NCBI GenBank assembly: GCA_965197725.1 | Contig: CBDANQ010000049.1 | Location: forward strand, 11,443-75,442 | Source of the DNA: Longimicrobiales bacterium | GTDB taxonomy: Bacteria; Gemmatimonadota; Gemmatimonadetes; Longimicrobiales; Gaopeijiaceae | Length of the DNA stretch: 64,000 nucleotides | Direction of reading: 5' to 3' | Shown: in pieces, positions 20,801 through 32,800 of the stretch | Position numbering within the stretch: position 1 is the first letter of the stretch | Layout of the letters: each line of letters starts with the position of its first letter | Made by a program: the position numbers

Positions 20801-23800
20801 GCACGAGCGAGAGGGCGTACAGCGCCGCCTTGGCGTTCAGCGTGTCAAAGGCGGTCTCGACCATGAGGATGTCGACGCCGCCCTCGAGCAGGCCACGCCC
20901 CTGCTCCTGGTACGCCTGCATGAGCTCGTCGAAGGTGACGTTGCGCGCGCCGGGGTCACCGACGTCGGGCGAGAGGGACGCCGTGCGGTTCGTGGGGCCG
21001 AGCGCGCCGACAACCCAGCGGGTGCGAGACGGGTCGCGCGCCTCGGCCTCGTCAGCGGCCTCGCGGGCGAGCTGGGCGGCGGCGCGGTTGAGCTCACGCG
21101 CGCGCTCTTCGAGTCCGTAGTCCGCGAGCGAGATCCTGTTCGCGCTGAAGGTGTTGGTCTCGATCAGGTCGGCGCCCGCCTGCAGGTACTCGGCGTGGAT
21201 GCCGCGAATCAAGGCGGGCTGCGTGAGGCACAGAAGGTCATTGGCTCCGAAGAGGGCAGTGTCGGTATCCGCGAAGCGCTGACCCCGAAAATCCTCCTCG
21301 CTGAGCTCGTGGCGCTGAATCATCGTGCCCATCGCGCCGTCGAGGACGAGGATCCTGCGCTGCAACTCTTCCCGCATCAAACGGACCCGGCCTGCGGATG
21401 ACGCCATTGATCCCTCTACAACAAAAGGCCCCTCGCGACAGTGCGCGACGGGGCGTCGGTCTTTTAGCTCGTTCGCGGGCTCGTCACACCGGGCGAGTCC
21501 CGCGGGCCGCAATACACCTCAAATCGCCCCAGATTTACTCACAAGAAGCTAGCGTCGGTCACGAGGAGCGCCAAGTTGACATGGCGCGCGACCCGCTCGC
21601 GTTCCATCGTTCGCGAACAAAGCCACCCAACACCACACGAAACGACGCATGAAGCGCTGGCCGCCCCGACCCAGTCTCGGCACTTCGTTCTACAAGGCAC
21701 ACGGTTTAGGGAACGACTACCTGGTCTTCCGGGAGGGTTCGGCTTGGTCGGCGACTCCCGAGGCGGTCGAGGCGGTGTGCGATCGGCACCGGGGTGTCGG
21801 TTCAGACGGGGTCGTGGCGCTTCTCGCGGCCCACGATCTCGACGGAATACGGCTGCGCATGTTCAACCCCGACGGCAGCGAGTTCGAGCGCAGCGGGAAT
21901 GGCCTGCGGGTCCTCGCGTCCTACCTCGCGCGGGAGGGCCTCGTGGGCGAGGCGTCCTTCGCGGTGGAGGTCGGTGGGGCTCAGATCGAGATGACCGTCC
22001 ACGGCGTTCGGGGAGCCACATACGATGTCTCGGTCGACATGGGGCGGTGTCGCGTCGGGCCCGAAGCCGTCGGTCTGGAAGCGAGCGCACTCGACGAGCG
22101 GGGGGGGCTCACCGGCCCGAATGGCGTGCCGCTTCACGTCGTCCCGGTCTCGGTGGGCAATCCACACCTGGTCACGCTCGTGCCCGACCCCACCGAAGAG
22201 CTACTCGAGAGTCTCGGCCCCTTCCTGGTATCCCACCCCGCTCTGAGCGATGGAGCGAACGTACAACTCGCGACACCGCTCGGTCCCGGCCGCGTGCGCG
22301 CGCTCATCTGGGAGCGGGGCGTGGGGCGCACCAGTGCTTCGGGCACTAGCGCGTGCGCGGTTGCGGTCGCGGCGGTGGCTGAAGGGCTCGTGGAAGCGGG
22401 CGACGTCACGGTGGAGATGTCCGGTGGCTCGCTGGTCGTATCGGTGAACTCCGGGTACGACACCGTTCTGCGCGGGCCGGTCGAAGAAGTGCTGAGCGGC
22501 GCACTGGCGACAGCGTGGGTCTCGAGGTTTGGGACGCCTACAAGCTAGTAAGCTGCGAACATTGACCAAGGGGACACCCTCGGTCAAGTGCGTACTCGCG
22601 TCAGGAGTACCAGGGCCGCCCCAAAGAAGACGAAGTTGGGGAGCCACGCCGCCATGAGCGGCGAGACGGCTCCCGCCTCACCGACCGCCCCGGAAATCTT
22701 GAGCATCAGGACGTAGACGATCACGGTCCCGAGCGAAATGCCTATCCCGTAGGCTGTTCCACCTCGCTGGTTGCTCGTCGCCAGCGGCGCACCGAACAAG
22801 AGTACGACGAGCGTCGCGACGGCGAGCGACAGTTTCTGCTCACGTTTTACCAGCAGTTCTGTCGCATTGCCCCCCGTGCGCTCGAGGATGCCCGCGAGGC
22901 GATCGATTTCAGCGTAGGTCATCTCGTCCGGCTCACGCGGAGCCTCCAACAGCTCGTCCGGTCTCTCGACCATGTCCCGCATGATGAGGCGACTGAACTG
23001 GATGGACTGCTCCGCCGAATCGGCCGTGAGCGTGCGCAGATAGCCTCGCCGCAACCCCCATCCCTGTATTGAATCCCAGGTCGCATAGTCCGCGAGTATG
23101 TGTAGTCCGGTCGAACCGTCCCTGGGTGGACGCTCGATCACTATGCCGGTCATGCGCCCGTCGCCGACAGTGAGTCGACGGATCTGCCACGTCAGACCGC
23201 TCTCGGAGCGGTAGACGAAGTCGGAGCGCCAAGAGCGCCGCGGATCCTCGTTTCGTAGGATCGCCGCGGCGATGCGGTTGCCGCGCGGCTCGAGCTCGGT
23301 GAGCGCGAGCGCCACACCGGTGAGCAGCACGCCCATCACCACGATAGGCACGATGAGCCGATGAAACGAAATGCCCCCGGCTTTGGCCGCGACGAGCTCA
23401 CGGTGGACCGTCATCCCGTGGACCGTGAAGACCGCCGCGATCAGCGCAGCGAACGGGAACGACCATTTGATGAACATCGGCATCATGAACACGTACGCCT
23501 CCGCGACCTCGGCGATGCTCAGGCCGCGATCGATGAAGTCGTCCATGTTCTCGGTGATGTGGCCGATGACGAGGAGCGGGGGGCCGGCGATCACGAAGAC
23601 CAGGAAGTGGCGAAGGAAGGTCCCGGCAACGAGCCGGTCGAGAAGCCGGTTCACGGGGCCACCCCTTCTCTCCGGCCTCCCAGGAGGCGTGCAAGGCCGT
23701 CGCCCGCGTTGCTCAAGAGGTCGTCGAGCATGCCGCCGCGCACGGTAGAGCCCGCGCGTGCCATGCGGCTGACCAATACGATGCCGACGATGAAGAAGAC

Positions 23801-29800: not shown

Positions 29801-32800
29801 GATAAGGTGTTGGGTTCGCGTTTCCGGTGGAATCCCGAACGCGTCTCCGTAGGGACGAGCTACTCGAAGATCGACAGCCGCATCCAGCGTTTCGAGCGCA
29901 TCATCGAGCACGAGGACGACTCTCTGGCACTCGTGACCCGGGCCCCCCGCGAGGGGTTTCAGACCGCTGCTGATGTTCGATTCAGACCGTTACCGCCCCT
30001 TTCGGCGAGCTTCACGATGGCGACCGTGAGGGACGTCCTGCCGCCGCAAGAGGCCGTCACCGACAACCGGGTGCGCGCTCTCGTCCGGGATGAGCGGACG
30101 CGCGCCGCCGGCCTCGACCTCGGGTGGGAGACCAATCGCTCTCTACAGACCCGAGTGTCCTTCGGGCCGAGTGTCTTCTCGTGGCTGAGGAGCGATTTCG
30201 ATTGGAACACGGTGTACCGGGCCGACCGTAACGCGAATCTCCTCGACCGTCAGGTTCTCGATGGCGATACGACGCTTGCCCTCGCTCGCAACGCGAGCGG
30301 TCGGCGCGACTGGCGAGCGGACTTCTCCCTCGACCCCACTCGGATGGTCGAGTCGTGGCTCGGTCCCGGCCACGAGGACGATCCCGCGAGTATCACCGAG
30401 TTACGGTCTGTGATCGGCGCTCTGCGTCCCTTCACAGTGACGTACCAGGACGGAATCGTTTCGCGATTCAATCGCGACCCGGTCGACCCAGGTCTCGGCT
30501 ATCAGTTCGGCTTTGGAGGCCCCGAGGGCTTTCGACTCATCGAGGGCGATACCGCGGCGACCTTGACGGACCGGTCTGCCTGGACGCTCGGCTCGGGCGT
30601 GGTGCTCCCCGGCGGCCTCGGTATCGACGCTGGCTTCCAACAGACCGAGGCTACGACTCTGGACACGCGCAGCGACCGCCGCACGGTGCTCAAGCGGTGG
30701 CCGGACGTGAGGACTCGGCTACCCGCGTTGACCCTGCCCGCCGCGACCAAGATCCGGTCCGTCAACCTCTCTTCGGGCATTACGCGCATCGAGCGTGAAA
30801 CCGAATTCGGCGGCCAGGGCGTGCAGCGCCGCTTCGCCGAGGACGTGCGGATCCCGCTCACCGTCTCGGTCGCCTGGCGGGGGACCCTCGTGACGAGCTA
30901 CCGCGGAGCGTTTCGCGCGGGGCGGGGCGTCGATCCGACCGGGGACACGGAGCGGGACCGAAGTGAGCACCACATTACGGTGTCCTCGCTGTTCGTGCCG
31001 CCTGGCGGGCTCGCTCGCCGCCTCGATCGTGCGGTCAGACTCTCCCTGATGGCTGGATACACGTCGGAGCGCGAGTGCCGCACGACCACCGCCCGCCAGG
31101 AATGTGTCGCTTTCCTCGACCAAATCCTCCGGAGCATCAACCTGTCGCTCGACACCAGCGTCAGCGGTTTCGAGATGGGAGTTCAGATGAGCTACGACGA
31201 CCGTCAGTCGTTCGTTGGGCAGCGTACCGGATCGACGCAGTTCCAGCTCATGCTGTGGGGGCAACTCCAGTTGTCGGCGGGCACGATCCCGGTGCGCCCA
31301 CGCGGCCTGTAGCAGCCGACCCCTCTAAGCATACGGCTGTCCCCGCGCCGACGTCATTTTTCTGGATGCGGGAGTCCTATTTCTGAATGCACGATTCCGA
31401 GACCCGAGCACTGCGCCGGACCGCGCTGTTGTTGTTTGCCGTGAGCGCCGTGCGCTTGATGTGGCCGGTCGGGAGCGTGGCACCGGACGTCGCCGAGGTG
31501 ACAGATTCCTTGCTCGCCGCGAGCCAGGAGGCGCTCGCGGATGCTGAGCACAGGTCCCGTCCACTCGAGCCAGGCGAACGCATCGACCCCAACCTGGCGA
31601 CTGCCCAGGAGCTGGATCGGCTCCCGGGAGTCGGTGCGGTGGCAGCGCGGGCGATCGTGGCGGAGCGAGAGCGGACCGGTCCGTTCCGCGACGCCGGTGA
31701 CCTGTCGCGTGTGCGTGGCATCGGTCCGGCGACCGTCGCGAAATTGGAACCCCACATCGCGGTGTCGAGGCCCCGCCCTGCGCCGCCGGGGCGCCCCCGA
31801 CGGCACCGGACGTCCCCCGCGTCGGCCGTCGACGTCAATCGCGCGACGGTGGACGACCTGGTCGCGTTGCCCGGGATCGGGCCAGCGCTCGCCGCACGAA
31901 TCGTCGACGCGAGAGGAGAACAGATGTTTGCGAGGGTTGAGGATCTGGTGCGGGTGCGTGGAATCGGGCCTGCAACCGTCGAACGACTGCGCCCTCTCGT
32001 GACTGCGGGTGGGGGCCGACGATGAAGCTGAGGCCGGGTGGGCCGTAAGGCCGATTGGCCGTTCCGCCATCTCTCTTGTAGAGTGACGGTACGGTCCTGT
32101 ATTGTTAAGCGGCGCAGCGTTTGCGCGTCCCCGATTTCCCCCCGTTAGGATTGCTCACCGATGGGAGCCAAGACCGCACAAGAGATTCGTCTCGGAGACC
32201 TGTTCGTTCGGGAAGGTCTGATCACGGAGGAGCAGTTGAAGGAGGGCCTCGCGGTCTCGAAGACGGAGGGCCACCGGATCGGGTATGCGTTGGTCCACCT
32301 GGGGTTCGTCCAGGAGGAAGAGCTCACGCGAATGCTCGCGAGGCAGTACCGCGTCCCCGCGGTCGATCTAGGTCACGGTGGACGAGAAGATCCTGAAGCT
32401 CATCCCTGGGCATGTCGCTATCAAGCATCTGGTCCTTCCGCTGCGTCGGGTCGGGCGGATGCTTACCGTAGCGATGACCAATCCCACGGACTTCTCCGCG
32501 ATCGACGATCTCAAGTTCATCACCAAGCTCGAAATTGAGCCGGTCATCGTCGGTGAGTACACGCTCCGCAAGCACCTCGAGCAGTACTTCGGCAGCACGG
32601 ACGACGAGCAGATGGCGAGTCTGCTCGAGCAGTGGCGTGATGACGAGGTCGAGGTCATCGAGGAGGAAGAGGACGAAGAGGCCTACTCCCAGATGGCGGC
32701 CGAGCTCGACGCGGCCCCTGTCGTCAAGTTCATCAACGGCCTTCTCACGGACGCGGTATTAAAGGGCGTCTCCGATATCCACATCGAGCCGTTCGAGAAG

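What a model noticed while it worked through the whole genome (the two positions that open the first line are those of the whole stretch)
22584..32025. SprA, PorV and PorX homologues without the PorKLMN motor, embedded in LPS-export loci
The genome encodes a 2038-aa Sov/SprA translocon, a PorV/PorQ-family barrel (C60:2455-3438) and a PorX regulator (C56:47729-49306) that pass NCBI's T9SS models, but no GldK/L/M/N, PorP/SprF or T9SS C-terminal sorting domains; sprA lies between lptFG and a ComEA-like gene, porX beside msbA and a lipid A acyltransferase. I read this as a motor-less, T9SS-related outer-membrane translocon working with LPS export in Gemmatimonadota. T9SS is held to be confined to Bacteroidota, so this would show the translocon's origin or a second use.
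Evidence so far: NCBIfam TIGR04189 482 bits (cut 200), PorX NF052313 566 bits (cut 300, full length), NF033709 96 bits (cut 90). g01556 matches solved Flavobacterium SprA 6H3I at E 9e-35. No Gld*, PorP, Por_Secre_tail or SprB family in pfam.tsv, ncbifam.tsv or, at weak marks, relatives.tsv. Six-frame searches here: TIGR04183 none; GldL none (controls silent); GldK 69 bits against a cut-off of 350 on a generic FGE-sulfatase gene; GldM none in 21 of 21 genomes, controls silent. neighbours.tsv: PglZ next to ABC_membrane in 305 of 457 genomes of the order; LptF_LptG two genes from HHH_3 in 204 of 457. SprA_N in 598 of 2019 Gemmatimonadota. Abby et al. 2016 (PMC4793230, passages): T9SS in Bacteroidetes only.
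(Added by a program. Inside this text positions count along the whole contig: contig position 11,443 is position 1 of the stretch shown here. "Call 12" and the like, gene names such as g00115 and contig names such as C1 are that model's own, and its searches are not shown. The text may have been shortened before it was handed on; [...] marks where a part breaks off. The agent that wrote the report below was given it as the finding of a first reader that could run no searches.)

Follow-up and report, generated by a model that had tools for sequence, protein, structure and literature searches.

The report
Motor-less SprA secretion pore, Gemmatimonadota
This soil-type bacterium carries a genuine gene for SprA, the giant outer-membrane pore of type 9 protein secretion, with a carrier barrel, a regulator and one small tagged protein, but without the motor, ring and sortase of the textbook system, and these parts always sit beside lipopolysaccharide-transport genes.

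Summary
Window 25196-31312(+) encodes a 2038-aa SprA/Sov homologue (TIGR04189 482 bits, covering 58% of the model, not 18%). It is transcribed divergently from lptFG, and comEA-like, pilB (split by an IS) and pilT follow it. A PorV-family barrel and a PorX regulator lie on other contigs.

In 151 sampled Gemmatimonadota genomes, GldM, GldL and GldK never reach their cut-offs. The same GldM search hits 10 of 10 Bacteroidota controls, and GldL hits 5 of 5.

One claim needs correcting. The genome does encode a type-A sorting domain, in a 148-aa signal-peptide-plus-CTD protein. That protein is single-copy, strongly conserved across the class, and modelled to dock on the PorV-like barrel.

Presence patterns split the parts into two modules. 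SprA goes with PorV. PorX goes with the mini-CTD protein, and PorX is co-oriented with an msbA-like gene in 16 of 16 loci of the class.

The lptGF|sprA-comEA block is kept in 39 of 40 loci across the phylum. However, a full Lpt pathway exists, including a divergent LptD, and 30 of 151 genomes lack SprA. SprA is therefore not the LPS conduit, and any link is probably regulatory.

T9SS in Gemmatimonadetes is already mentioned in print, and this scan noted the same class before on other genomes.

Verdict: a reduced, apparently motor-less variant of a known system; LPS coupling unproven.

The parts
22584..23654 (-). lptG, LPS-export ABC permease
   Evidence: PF03739 212.9 bits, TIGR04408 149 bits. 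The start is inferred from where the Pfam match begins.
23651..25108 (-). lptF, LPS-export ABC permease
   Evidence: PF03739 252.4 bits, TIGR04407 155 bits. The ATG at 25108 was read from the sequence.
25109..25195 (.). 87-bp divergent intergenic region between the lptF and sprA starts
   Evidence: Read from the sequence. Promoters were not tested.
25196..31312 (+). sprA/sov homologue, 2038 aa, signal-peptide-like N-terminus
   Evidence: TIGR04189 482 bits in 4 stretches. PDB 6H3I E 1e-34. Present in 121 of 151 genomes of the phylum.
31387..32025 (+). ComEA-like protein with two HhH (HHH_3) domains and an N-terminal hydrophobic segment
   Evidence: HHH_3 122.5 bits, TIGR00426 90.9 bits. Lies downstream of sprA in 35 of 40 loci.
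32378..32884 (+). pilB N-terminal fragment (MshEN plus the start of T2SSE)
33019..33903 (+). IS1595-family transposase splitting pilB
   Evidence: DDE_Tnp_IS1595 120.9 bits. GC falls to 0.59-0.60 over 32001-36000.
34553..35224 (+). pilB C-terminal fragment
   Evidence: T2SSE positions 234-369 of 370, 121.6 bits.
35253..36386 (+). pilT-like ATPase, end of the conserved block
   Evidence: T2SSE 105.5 bits. A pilB/pilT match lies downstream of comEA in 31 of 40 loci.

Best explanation
The gene is an authentic member of the SprA/Sov family of giant outer-membrane translocons. In this organism it belongs to a pared-down system derived from type 9 secretion, not to a complete T9SS. Homologue names place the organism in Longimicrobiales, Gemmatimonadota.

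The parts found are SprA, one PorV-family carrier barrel, one strongly conserved 148-aa protein that is only a signal peptide plus a type-A C-terminal sorting domain, and a PorX-type response regulator.

Inferred mechanism: the Sec system brings the small CTD protein (and possibly unrecognised clients) into the periplasm. Its CTD docks on the PorV-like barrel, and the pair uses the SprA pore, as in Flavobacterium. The energy source is unknown, because no GldL/M-type motor, GldK ring protein, PorP or PorU sortase is detectable.

The link to LPS is genomic. sprA is kept back-to-back with lptFG, and porX is kept in front of an msbA-like gene and lpxL. I read this as shared regulation of outer-membrane biogenesis, possibly a PorA-like CTD signal feeding PorX. 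I do not read it as SprA carrying LPS.

Shown: homology, gene order, presence and absence patterns, controls. Inferred: transport of the mini-CTD protein, its role in signalling, and the absence (rather than divergence) of a motor.
For: SprA homology.

Gene block: lptG<-lptF | sprA->comEA->pilB/T. Among 40 loci from 8 families and more than one class, lptF/G are adjacent and divergent in 39, and comEA is downstream in 35. The next flanking gene, dapF, is kept in only 3 of 40, all in the own family. None of 3 Bacteroidota sprA loci has LptF/G, ComEA or PilT within about 6 kb.

No motor or ring over the cut-off: GldM 0/151, GldL 0/151, GldK 0/151. Controls: GldM 10/10 and GldL 5/5 named Bacteroidota genomes.

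PorU: 0/132 in the own class, but 19/19 in the other classes. This serves as an internal positive control.

PorV-like barrel:
- 95.9 bits.
- The best fold matches are chain F of the two T9SS translocon entries, 8gl6_F (E 7e-10, TM 0.65) and 6h3i_F, which I take to be PorV from recall. FadL relatives follow.
- Present in 120 of 121 SprA-positive genomes against 13 of 30 SprA-negative genomes, most of those weak.

Mini-CTD protein:
- 40-47% identical to 8 of 9 aligned Gemmatimonadota CTDs (33% and 16% to the other two), with the NYPNPFNP and SGxYF motifs.
- Found in 39/41 genomes of the family and 26/26 good-quality ones.
- Single small ORF in 111/132 genomes of the class.
- More than 1400 homologues; the best 120 are 144-177 aa and 67-93% identical.
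- Atlas neighbours carry Por_Secre_tail on 39-58% of members.

Complex model of the PorV-like barrel with the mini-CTD protein: score 0.89, best of 3 controls 0.00. This mark was reached by 116 of 157 solved complexes and 2 of 215 mismatched pairs. The runs agree in at least 85% of contacts, and partner pLDDT is at least 86. My own alignments were used, so these counts hold only roughly.
Against: - The GldK/L/M models are built from Bacteroidota, so a very divergent or non-homologous energiser would be missed.
- GldN and PorP had no working positive control.
- The genome is 88.9% complete.
- PorW/SprE, PorT, PorE, PorQ, PorZ, Plug and type-B CTDs were not searched.
- The CTD protein is below the curated TIGR04183 cut-off (21.7 against 23).
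- The complex pass may reflect likeness to the solved SprA-PorV-RemA-CTD complex (8GL6) rather than binding of this copy.
- The mini-CTD protein persists in 15 of 30 SprA-negative genomes and in 8 genomes without a PorV hit. Export by SprA/PorV therefore cannot be its only reason to exist.
- No expression data were available.
- Related genomes are not independent, so the co-occurrence counts overstate support.
Confidence: 0.65

Rival explanations
1. One reading: SprA works physically with the LPS export machinery. It might export or place LPS-linked or LPS-modifying factors, or serve as part of the LPS route.
For: - lptFG is adjacent to sprA in 39/40 loci across the phylum.
- porX is followed by an msbA-like gene in 16/16 loci of the class, and lies next to a GT9-like gene in 4/4 loci of the other classes.
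- In three SprA-less genomes of one genus the porX-msbA-lpxL cluster lies directly beside lptFG.
- In P. gingivalis, T9SS cargo is attached to A-LPS (abstracts), and lipid A 1-phosphatase activity needs a working T9SS (PMC12704123, title and one passage).
Against: - lptFG and sprA are divergent, not co-transcribed.
- The canonical route is present: an MsbA-like gene (498.7 bits, below the cut-off of 602), LptFG, an LptA-like gene plus an ABC ATPase, and a 958-aa LptD candidate (7OMM E 4.9e-7; NCBIfam LptD E 2e-7).
- 30/151 genomes lack SprA. LptF was found in 4 of the 5 that were checked; the fifth probably lacks the whole region through an assembly gap.
- PorU, the A-LPS attaching part, is 0/132 in this class.
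Confidence: 0.15
2. The system is not motor-less. A GldLM/PorLM-like motor and ring exist but have diverged beyond the reach of the curated models, or an ExbBD/TolQR-type motor has taken their place.
For: - The other classes of the phylum have SprA, 4-14 PorV/PorQ-family matches, PorU (19/19) and 16 to at least 35 CTD matches per genome (listing capped at 35). Even so, they show no GldK/L/M. A system that complete is hard to picture without an energy input.
- The models derive from Bacteroidota only.
Against: - GldM was found in 10/10 Bacteroidota genomes with titles ranging from Flavobacteriaceae and Sphingobacteriaceae genera to Paludibacter, Marinifilum, Pontibacter and Lentimicrobiaceae, at 243-481 bits.
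- Not one of 151 genomes gave even a weak GldM match at E<=0.01.
- The 10 weak GldL matches lie in unrelated large or tiny ORFs.
Confidence: 0.25
3. SprA here serves the neighbouring ComEA / type IV pilus genes, for DNA uptake or pilus passage, rather than protein secretion.
For: sprA, comEA, pilB and pilT are co-oriented and kept together in 31-35 of 40 loci.
Against: - A normal PilQ-type secretin is present elsewhere in the genome (130.9 bits).
- In this genome pilB is split by an IS while sprA is intact.
- The profiles tie SprA to PorV.
Confidence: 0.05
4. The gene is a decaying relic with no present function.
For: - Loss of PorU and of nearly all CTD cargo in this class.
- 30/151 genomes have lost SprA.
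Against: - The frame is open for 2125 aa without stops.
- 48-54% identity within the family over the whole length.
- Present in 15/16 sampled family genomes.
- The partner barrel and the mini-CTD protein are 64-94% and 67-93% identical among their best 120 listed homologues.
Confidence: 0.05

Closest known systems
SprA (Flavobacterium johnsoniae; PDB 6H3I/6H3J, 8GL6 and others) / Sov (Porphyromonas gingivalis), the T9SS outer-membrane translocon
   Same: A giant signal-peptide-bearing outer-membrane protein. It passes NCBI's equivalog model and is homologous to the solved protein in three stretches. It co-occurs with a PorV-like barrel.
   Different: - About 360 aa shorter than the solved 2403-aa protein, and far more divergent (482 bits against 2000-2900 in Bacteroidota).
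- No GldKLMN, PorP or PorU in the genome.
- Different gene neighbourhood (lptFG and comEA-pilBT; 0 of 3 Bacteroidota loci share it).
PorV (T9SS carrier barrel, FadL-like)
   Same: Passes the PorV/PorQ family model. Its best structural matches are chain F of 8GL6 and 6H3I, taken to be PorV. It is modelled to hold the CTD through the conserved NYPNP motif and the C-terminal strands.
   Different: - Fails the PorV equivalog model (29 bits against a cut-off of 250) and the PorQ model (40.6 against 220).
- Single copy.
- Lies after era, with no T9SS neighbours.
PorA of P. gingivalis (PMC7712824 passages; PMC12152298 abstract): a small CTD cargo whose CTD binds PorY and switches on PorX-SigP
   Same: A small secreted protein dominated by a CTD. 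Its presence follows PorX: 0 of 11 PorX-less genomes of the class have it, against 111 of 121 with PorX.
   Different: - 148 aa, with no FimH-like N-terminal domain (PorA is 246 aa).
- Two conserved insertions in the CTD.
- No PorY or SigP identified here.
- No sequence comparison with PorA was possible.
PorX (response regulator with PglZ domain; PMC9757075 abstract)
   Same: Full-length match of 565.6 bits, with receiver plus PglZ domains.
   Different: - Heads an operon with an msbA-like exporter and an LpxL-type acyltransferase (4-nt overlaps).
- Kept in 19 of 30 genomes that lack SprA, so its role here is not tied to the translocon alone.

Membership tests
SprA/Sov translocon (TIGR04189) | Score over the curated equivalog cut-off | tested here: met
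   482.1 bits against 200; 483.6 bits in six frames.
SprA/Sov translocon (TIGR04189) | Homology along most of the length to solved SprA | tested here: met
   Model positions 93-1795 matched in 4 stretches, 58% of the model. 6H3I E 1e-34 in 3 stretches. The last 520 or so model positions are unmatched.
SprA/Sov translocon (TIGR04189) | 36-strand barrel fold with lateral opening | not testable with these tools
   The protein exceeds the 1200-aa folding limit.
Complete T9SS | GldL/PorL-GldM/PorM motor | tested here: not met
   0/151 over the cut-off. Controls: GldM 10/10, GldL 5/5.
Complete T9SS | GldK/PorK and GldN/PorN ring | tested here: not met
   GldK 0/151 over the cut-off; only the generic sulfatase-like half of the model matches. 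GldN gave nothing in G000, but no control rang.
Complete T9SS | PorU sortase / attachment complex | tested here: not met
   0/132 in the class, 19/19 in the other classes. G000 gave only 15.8 bits, on the mini-CTD tail.
Complete T9SS | Cargo with a C-terminal sorting domain | tested here: inconclusive
   One protein: TIGR04183 21.7 bits against a cut-off of 23, and 55.7 bits with a phylum-specific profile. Type-B CTDs were not searched.
Complete T9SS | PorP/SprF | tested here: inconclusive
   No match in G000. The only control to ring was below the cut-off.
PorV | Family model and fold | tested here: met
   NF033709 95.9 bits against 90. Best fold matches are 8gl6_F and 6h3i_F. The PorV equivalog model NF033710 is not met (29 against 250).
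PorX | Receiver plus PglZ domains, full-length equivalog score | tested here: met
   565.6 bits against 300, model positions 2-513 of 513. Response_reg plus PglZ domains.
PorA-like signalling cargo | N-terminal ligand-binding domain plus a CTD that binds PorY | tested here: not met
   Only a signal peptide, a short linker and the CTD. Binding to a kinase is not testable here.

The most novel reading that the evidence does not exclude
In the class Gemmatimonadetes, a type 9 remnant has been rewired into an envelope-surveillance circuit. A universally kept, CTD-only reporter protein is cleared from the periplasm by a motor-less SprA-PorV pore. Its periplasmic level is read through a PorX pathway. 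PorX is co-transcribed with the lipid A flippase-like MsbA and with LpxL, and this couples outer-membrane protein export to LPS supply. That would explain why sprA stays beside lptFG and porX beside msbA across the phylum.
Probability: 0.12. Interest if true: 0.8.

Novelty: new variant of a known kind. Interest (0 to 1): 0.6.

Why it matters
The proton-driven GldLM/PorLM motor is treated as indispensable for type 9 secretion. Here a whole phylum keeps the pore and the carrier, and its deeper classes also keep the sortase and dozens of tagged cargo proteins, yet no motor is recognisable. Two explanations are open: the pore can work with another energy source, or the motor was a later addition in Bacteroidota. 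Cultured Gemmatimonas and Longimicrobium make the question testable.

The conserved pairings sprA-lptFG and porX-msbA-lpxL, and the single CTD-only protein that follows PorX, give concrete handles on how protein export and LPS biogenesis might be coordinated.

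Tried and rejected
- SprA as a replacement for LptD. Rejected. PF04453 gave nothing in G000 and only weak hits in 12/151 genomes. 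However, the G000 orthologue (48.7% identity) of one such weak hit is a 958-aa protein whose best matches are LptD.\n- SprA as a replacement for the pilus secretin. Rejected, because PilQ is present.\n- RNA evidence. No RNA holder was listed among 6 runs. Read laying was not used.\n- Fold search of the mini-CTD model. It returned generic Ig-like sandwiches. PorU (rank 6) and PorZ (rank 26) were among them, at E about 2e-3 to 5e-3, so this is not decisive. A profile search of PDB sequences gave only FlgD-like hits at E 0.14 and 0.99.\n- A homologue search from the Gemmatimonas SprA, meant to reach Bacteroidota, returned only Gemmatimonadaceae among the 120 proteins listed.\n- Literature (listings only unless stated). 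'SprA+Gemmatimonadetes+T9SS' gave 4 papers. 'type IX secretion+Gemmatimonadota' gave 2. 'Gemmatimonas+T9SS' gave 1. 'PorX+MsbA' gave 3. A five-term FCB search gave 19. None describes a motor-less system or a porX-msbA operon in this phylum. Subscription journals and supplements were not seen.\n- A repeat search around the IS found no inverted repeats.

Full report
**1. The observation**

- lptG (22584-23654, -) and lptF (23651-25108, -) match LptF_LptG at 213 and 252 bits.
- 87 bp upstream of lptF, on the other strand, a GTG at 25196 preceded by GAGG opens a 2038-aa frame with a signal-peptide-like start.
- This protein scores 482 bits on NCBI's SprA/Sov equivalog model against a cut-off of 200.
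That figure is the best single stretch. Four stretches cover positions 93-256, 372-790, 898-950 and 1080-1795 of 2319, about 58%.
- Solved Flavobacterium SprA matches at E 1e-34 in three stretches.
- A ComEA-like gene with two HhH domains follows at 31387-32025. Then come a pilB gene split by an IS1595-family transposase, and pilT.
- On other contigs, the PorV-family barrel (95.9 bits, cut-off 90) and PorX (565.6 bits, cut-off 300, full length) are as stated.

**2. The gene block is conserved across the phylum**

SprA is found in 121 of 151 sampled Gemmatimonadota genomes, 120 of them over the cut-off. I fetched 40 loci of up to 20 kb around sprA, from eight families and more than one class, and searched them with the window's proteins.
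- lptF and lptG lie next to sprA on the opposite strand in 39 of 40 loci.
- comEA lies downstream on the same strand in 35 of 40.
- A pilB/pilT match follows in 31 of 40.
- The next gene outward, dapF, is kept in only 3 of 40, all in the own family. This serves as a natural control for plain inheritance of gene order.
- SprA identity to the window protein falls to 23-31% in most of the other families, yet the block persists.
The own family lacks it.
- Three Bacteroidota sprA loci (genome titles Flagellimonas, Myroides, Pedobacter) have no LptF/G, ComEA or PilT within about 6 kb.

**3. Which T9SS parts exist, with controls**

In the same 151 genomes:
- GldM gave no match at all.
- GldL gave 10 weak matches in 9 genomes, none over the cut-off.
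- GldK gave only matches to its generic sulfatase-like half, none over the cut-off.

The built-in control genomes lack T9SS. I therefore reached named Bacteroidota genomes through a 16S probe. GldM was found in 10 of 10 of them and GldL in 5 of 5, all over the cut-off.

PorU supplies an internal control. It is present in 19 of 19 genomes of the other classes of the phylum and in 0 of 132 genomes of the window's class. Those other classes also have 16 to at least 35 TIGR04183 matches per genome (listing capped at 35) and 4-14 PorV/PorQ-family matches. The window's class has 0-6 such matches per genome, mostly 0-3. The canonical tails read NYPNPFNP...SGVYFYR...KMVILK.

So the phylum holds two grades of the system: a rich one and a reduced one. 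Neither has a detectable motor. The window's genome belongs to the reduced grade.

**4.

I built a profile from 10 Gemmatimonadota CTDs and searched all 43,247 six-frame ORFs of the genome. It gave one hit, at 55.7 bits and E 1e-14. The hit is a 148-aa protein at C40:53932-54378(-), between dusB and selB.
- It consists of a signal peptide, a short linker and a CTD with two insertions.
- The curated model gives 21.7 bits against a cut-off of 23. This explains why it was missed.
- It aligns at 40-47% identity to 8 of the 9 CTDs in the alignment.
- It is found in 39 of 41 genomes of the family, sampled one per genus, and in 26 of 26 good-quality ones.
- It occurs as a single small ORF in 111 of the 132 genomes of the class.
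- Public protein sets hold more than 1400 homologues. The best 120 are 144-177 aa long and 67-93% identical. They are named 'hypothetical', and several come from Longimicrobiales.
- The insertions are themselves conserved.
- Its model is a beta-sandwich with pLDDT 81. The fold search is generic.
- The nearest Atlas clusters carry Por_Secre_tail on 39-58% of their members.

**5. The PorV-like barrel and docking of the CTD**

The barrel's model (pLDDT 71) best matches chain F of the two T9SS translocon entries, 8gl6_F (E 7e-10, TM 0.65) and 6h3i_F. I take these chains to be PorV from recall. FadL relatives come next.

A complex model of the barrel with the mini-CTD protein passed:
- Score 0.89, best of 3 controls 0.00.
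- This mark was reached by 116 of 157 solved complexes and by 2 of 215 mismatched pairs.
- The runs agree in at least 85% of their contacts, and the partner's pLDDT is at least 86.
- Contacts fall on the conserved NYPNP motif and the C-terminal strands.
- My own alignments were used, so the counts hold only roughly.
- A like complex (SprA-PorV-RemA-CTD, 8GL6) has been solved. The pass therefore shows likeness, not that this copy binds.

**6. Presence patterns point to two modules**

The ten unlisted SprA-negative genomes were inferred from their absence in the positive list.

| Protein | In SprA-positive genomes | In the 30 SprA-negative genomes |
|---|---|---|
| PorV-family | 120 of 121 | 13 (mostly weak hits) |
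| PorX | 120 of 121 | 19 |
| Mini-CTD (class only) | 96 of 102 | 15 |

- 17 of the 18 genomes without a PorV hit also lack SprA.
- Within the class, the mini-CTD protein is in 111 of 121 genomes with PorX and in 0 of 11 without.
- The PorX losses lie in at least six genera of three families.

SprA thus travels with PorV, and the mini-CTD protein travels with PorX. This recalls PorA of P. gingivalis, a small cargo whose CTD binds PorY and activates PorX-SigP (PMC12152298, abstract; PMC7712824, passages). PorA, however, is 246 aa long and has an N-terminal FimH-like domain that is absent here.

Two caveats apply. Related genomes are not independent. And one 'SprA-negative' genome, G087, also lacks LptF, so the whole region is probably unassembled there.

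**7. PorX sits in LPS operons**

In G000 the gene order is: a small phosphatase-like gene, porX, an msbA-like exporter (TIGR02203 498.7 bits, below its cut-off of 602), an LpxL-type acyltransferase, GT2, DUF3108. The two junctions after porX overlap by 4 nt. A heptosyltransferase and a Kdo/WaaP-type kinase lie on the other strand.
- Among 20 PorX loci, an msbA-like gene follows porX directly in 16 of 16 loci of the class.
- A GT9-like gene adjoins porX in 4 of 4 loci of the other classes.
- In three complete or nearly complete genomes of one genus that lack SprA, this porX cluster lies directly against lptFG.

**8. Does SprA work with LPS export?**

The adjacency is real and conserved, and it occurs twice over (sprA-lptFG and porX-msbA). 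But several points argue against a direct role:
- lptFG and sprA are divergent, not co-transcribed.
- The genome has an LptA-like protein next to an ABC ATPase that I take to be LptB.
- It also has a 958-aa protein orthologous to weak LptD hits in relatives. Its best matches are LptD (7OMM E 4.9e-7; NCBIfam LptD E 2e-7).
- A fifth of the sampled genomes do without SprA.
- PorU, which attaches cargo to LPS in P. gingivalis, is missing in this class.

I therefore reject SprA as an LPS conduit. I rate a direct mechanical partnership as unlikely, and shared regulation of outer-membrane biogenesis as the better reading. A pilus or DNA-uptake role is also unlikely. A PilQ secretin exists, and pilB is broken here while sprA is intact.

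**9. What is known already**

- Abby et al. 2016 found T9SS only in Bacteroidetes, and left Gemmatimonadetes out of their figure for lack of genomes (passages).
- Bochtler et al. 2018 note BLAST hints of T9SS in Chlorobi, Fibrobacteres and Ignavibacteriae (passage).
- Mizgalska et al. 2024 state that T9SS 'may also be present' in FCB phyla including Gemmatimonadetes (passage).
- NCBI, UniRef and JGI already name the homologues SprA/Sov and PorV/PorQ.
- My searches found no account of a motor-less architecture, of the two grades within the phylum, of the porX-msbA operon, or of the CTD-only protein.
- This scan has noted motor-less SprA systems in other Gemmatimonadota genomes before. Those are AI notes, not independent evidence.

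**10. Limits**

- The genome is 88.9% complete.
- GldN and PorP lack a working control.
- SprA itself is too long to fold here.
- There are no expression data.
- The phylum tallies include one unpublished genome, G057, as 1 of the 151.

Noticed in passing
window 32378-35224: pilB is split by an IS1595-family transposase (33019-33903), and GC drops to 0.59-0.60 over 32001-36000. A roughly 45-nt direct repeat lies at 34403-34446 and 34619-34663. No terminal inverted repeats were found.
   Followed up: partly
G000 C40:53932-54378 (L211:9933-10379, -): A 148-aa protein made of a signal peptide plus a CTD, with two conserved insertions and an invariant His. It is single-copy across the class and is annotated only as 'hypothetical' in public records.
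   Followed up: yes
L251-L253 (G058, G082, G100): In a genus without SprA, the cluster DUF3108<-GT2<-lpxL<-msbA<-porX<-GT9 lies directly against lptF->lptG.
   Followed up: partly
G000 C30 (L226:826-2505): An unusually long (559 aa) LptA-like protein with a weak OstA/LptD_N match, directly upstream of an ABC ATPase that is probably lptB.
   Followed up: partly
G000 C24:19525-22401 (L235:2526-5402): A very divergent 958-aa LptD candidate next to tatC. The Pfam LptD model misses it, and finds only weak hits in 12 of 151 genomes of the phylum.
   Followed up: partly
L046:6201-7280, L061:6041-7237: A Peptidase_M28 (glutaminyl-cyclase-like) gene lies between sprA and comEA in two other families, with an extra Lnb_N gene in one of them. 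The window's family lacks it.
   Followed up: partly
G000 C60 (L005:1179-4848): The PorV-like gene overlaps the end of era by 17 nt and is followed by an rve-type transposase.
   Followed up: no
window 36458-44678: An ECF sigma, anti-sigma and TonB-dependent-receptor-like cluster (38015-41567), flanked by three ORFs (495, 398 and 558 aa) that match no Pfam or NCBIfam family.
   Followed up: no
G152 and G153 (named Bacteroidota controls): In the Chryseobacterium control genome, sprA appears in pieces with internal stops. The Sphingobacterium control gave no SprA match although GldL and GldM are present.
   Followed up: no
G123:C2:1777-5631: This is the only genome among the 16 sampled from the family with canonical TIGR04183 tails. 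It has two 49-bit hits, close together near the start of a contig.
   Followed up: no
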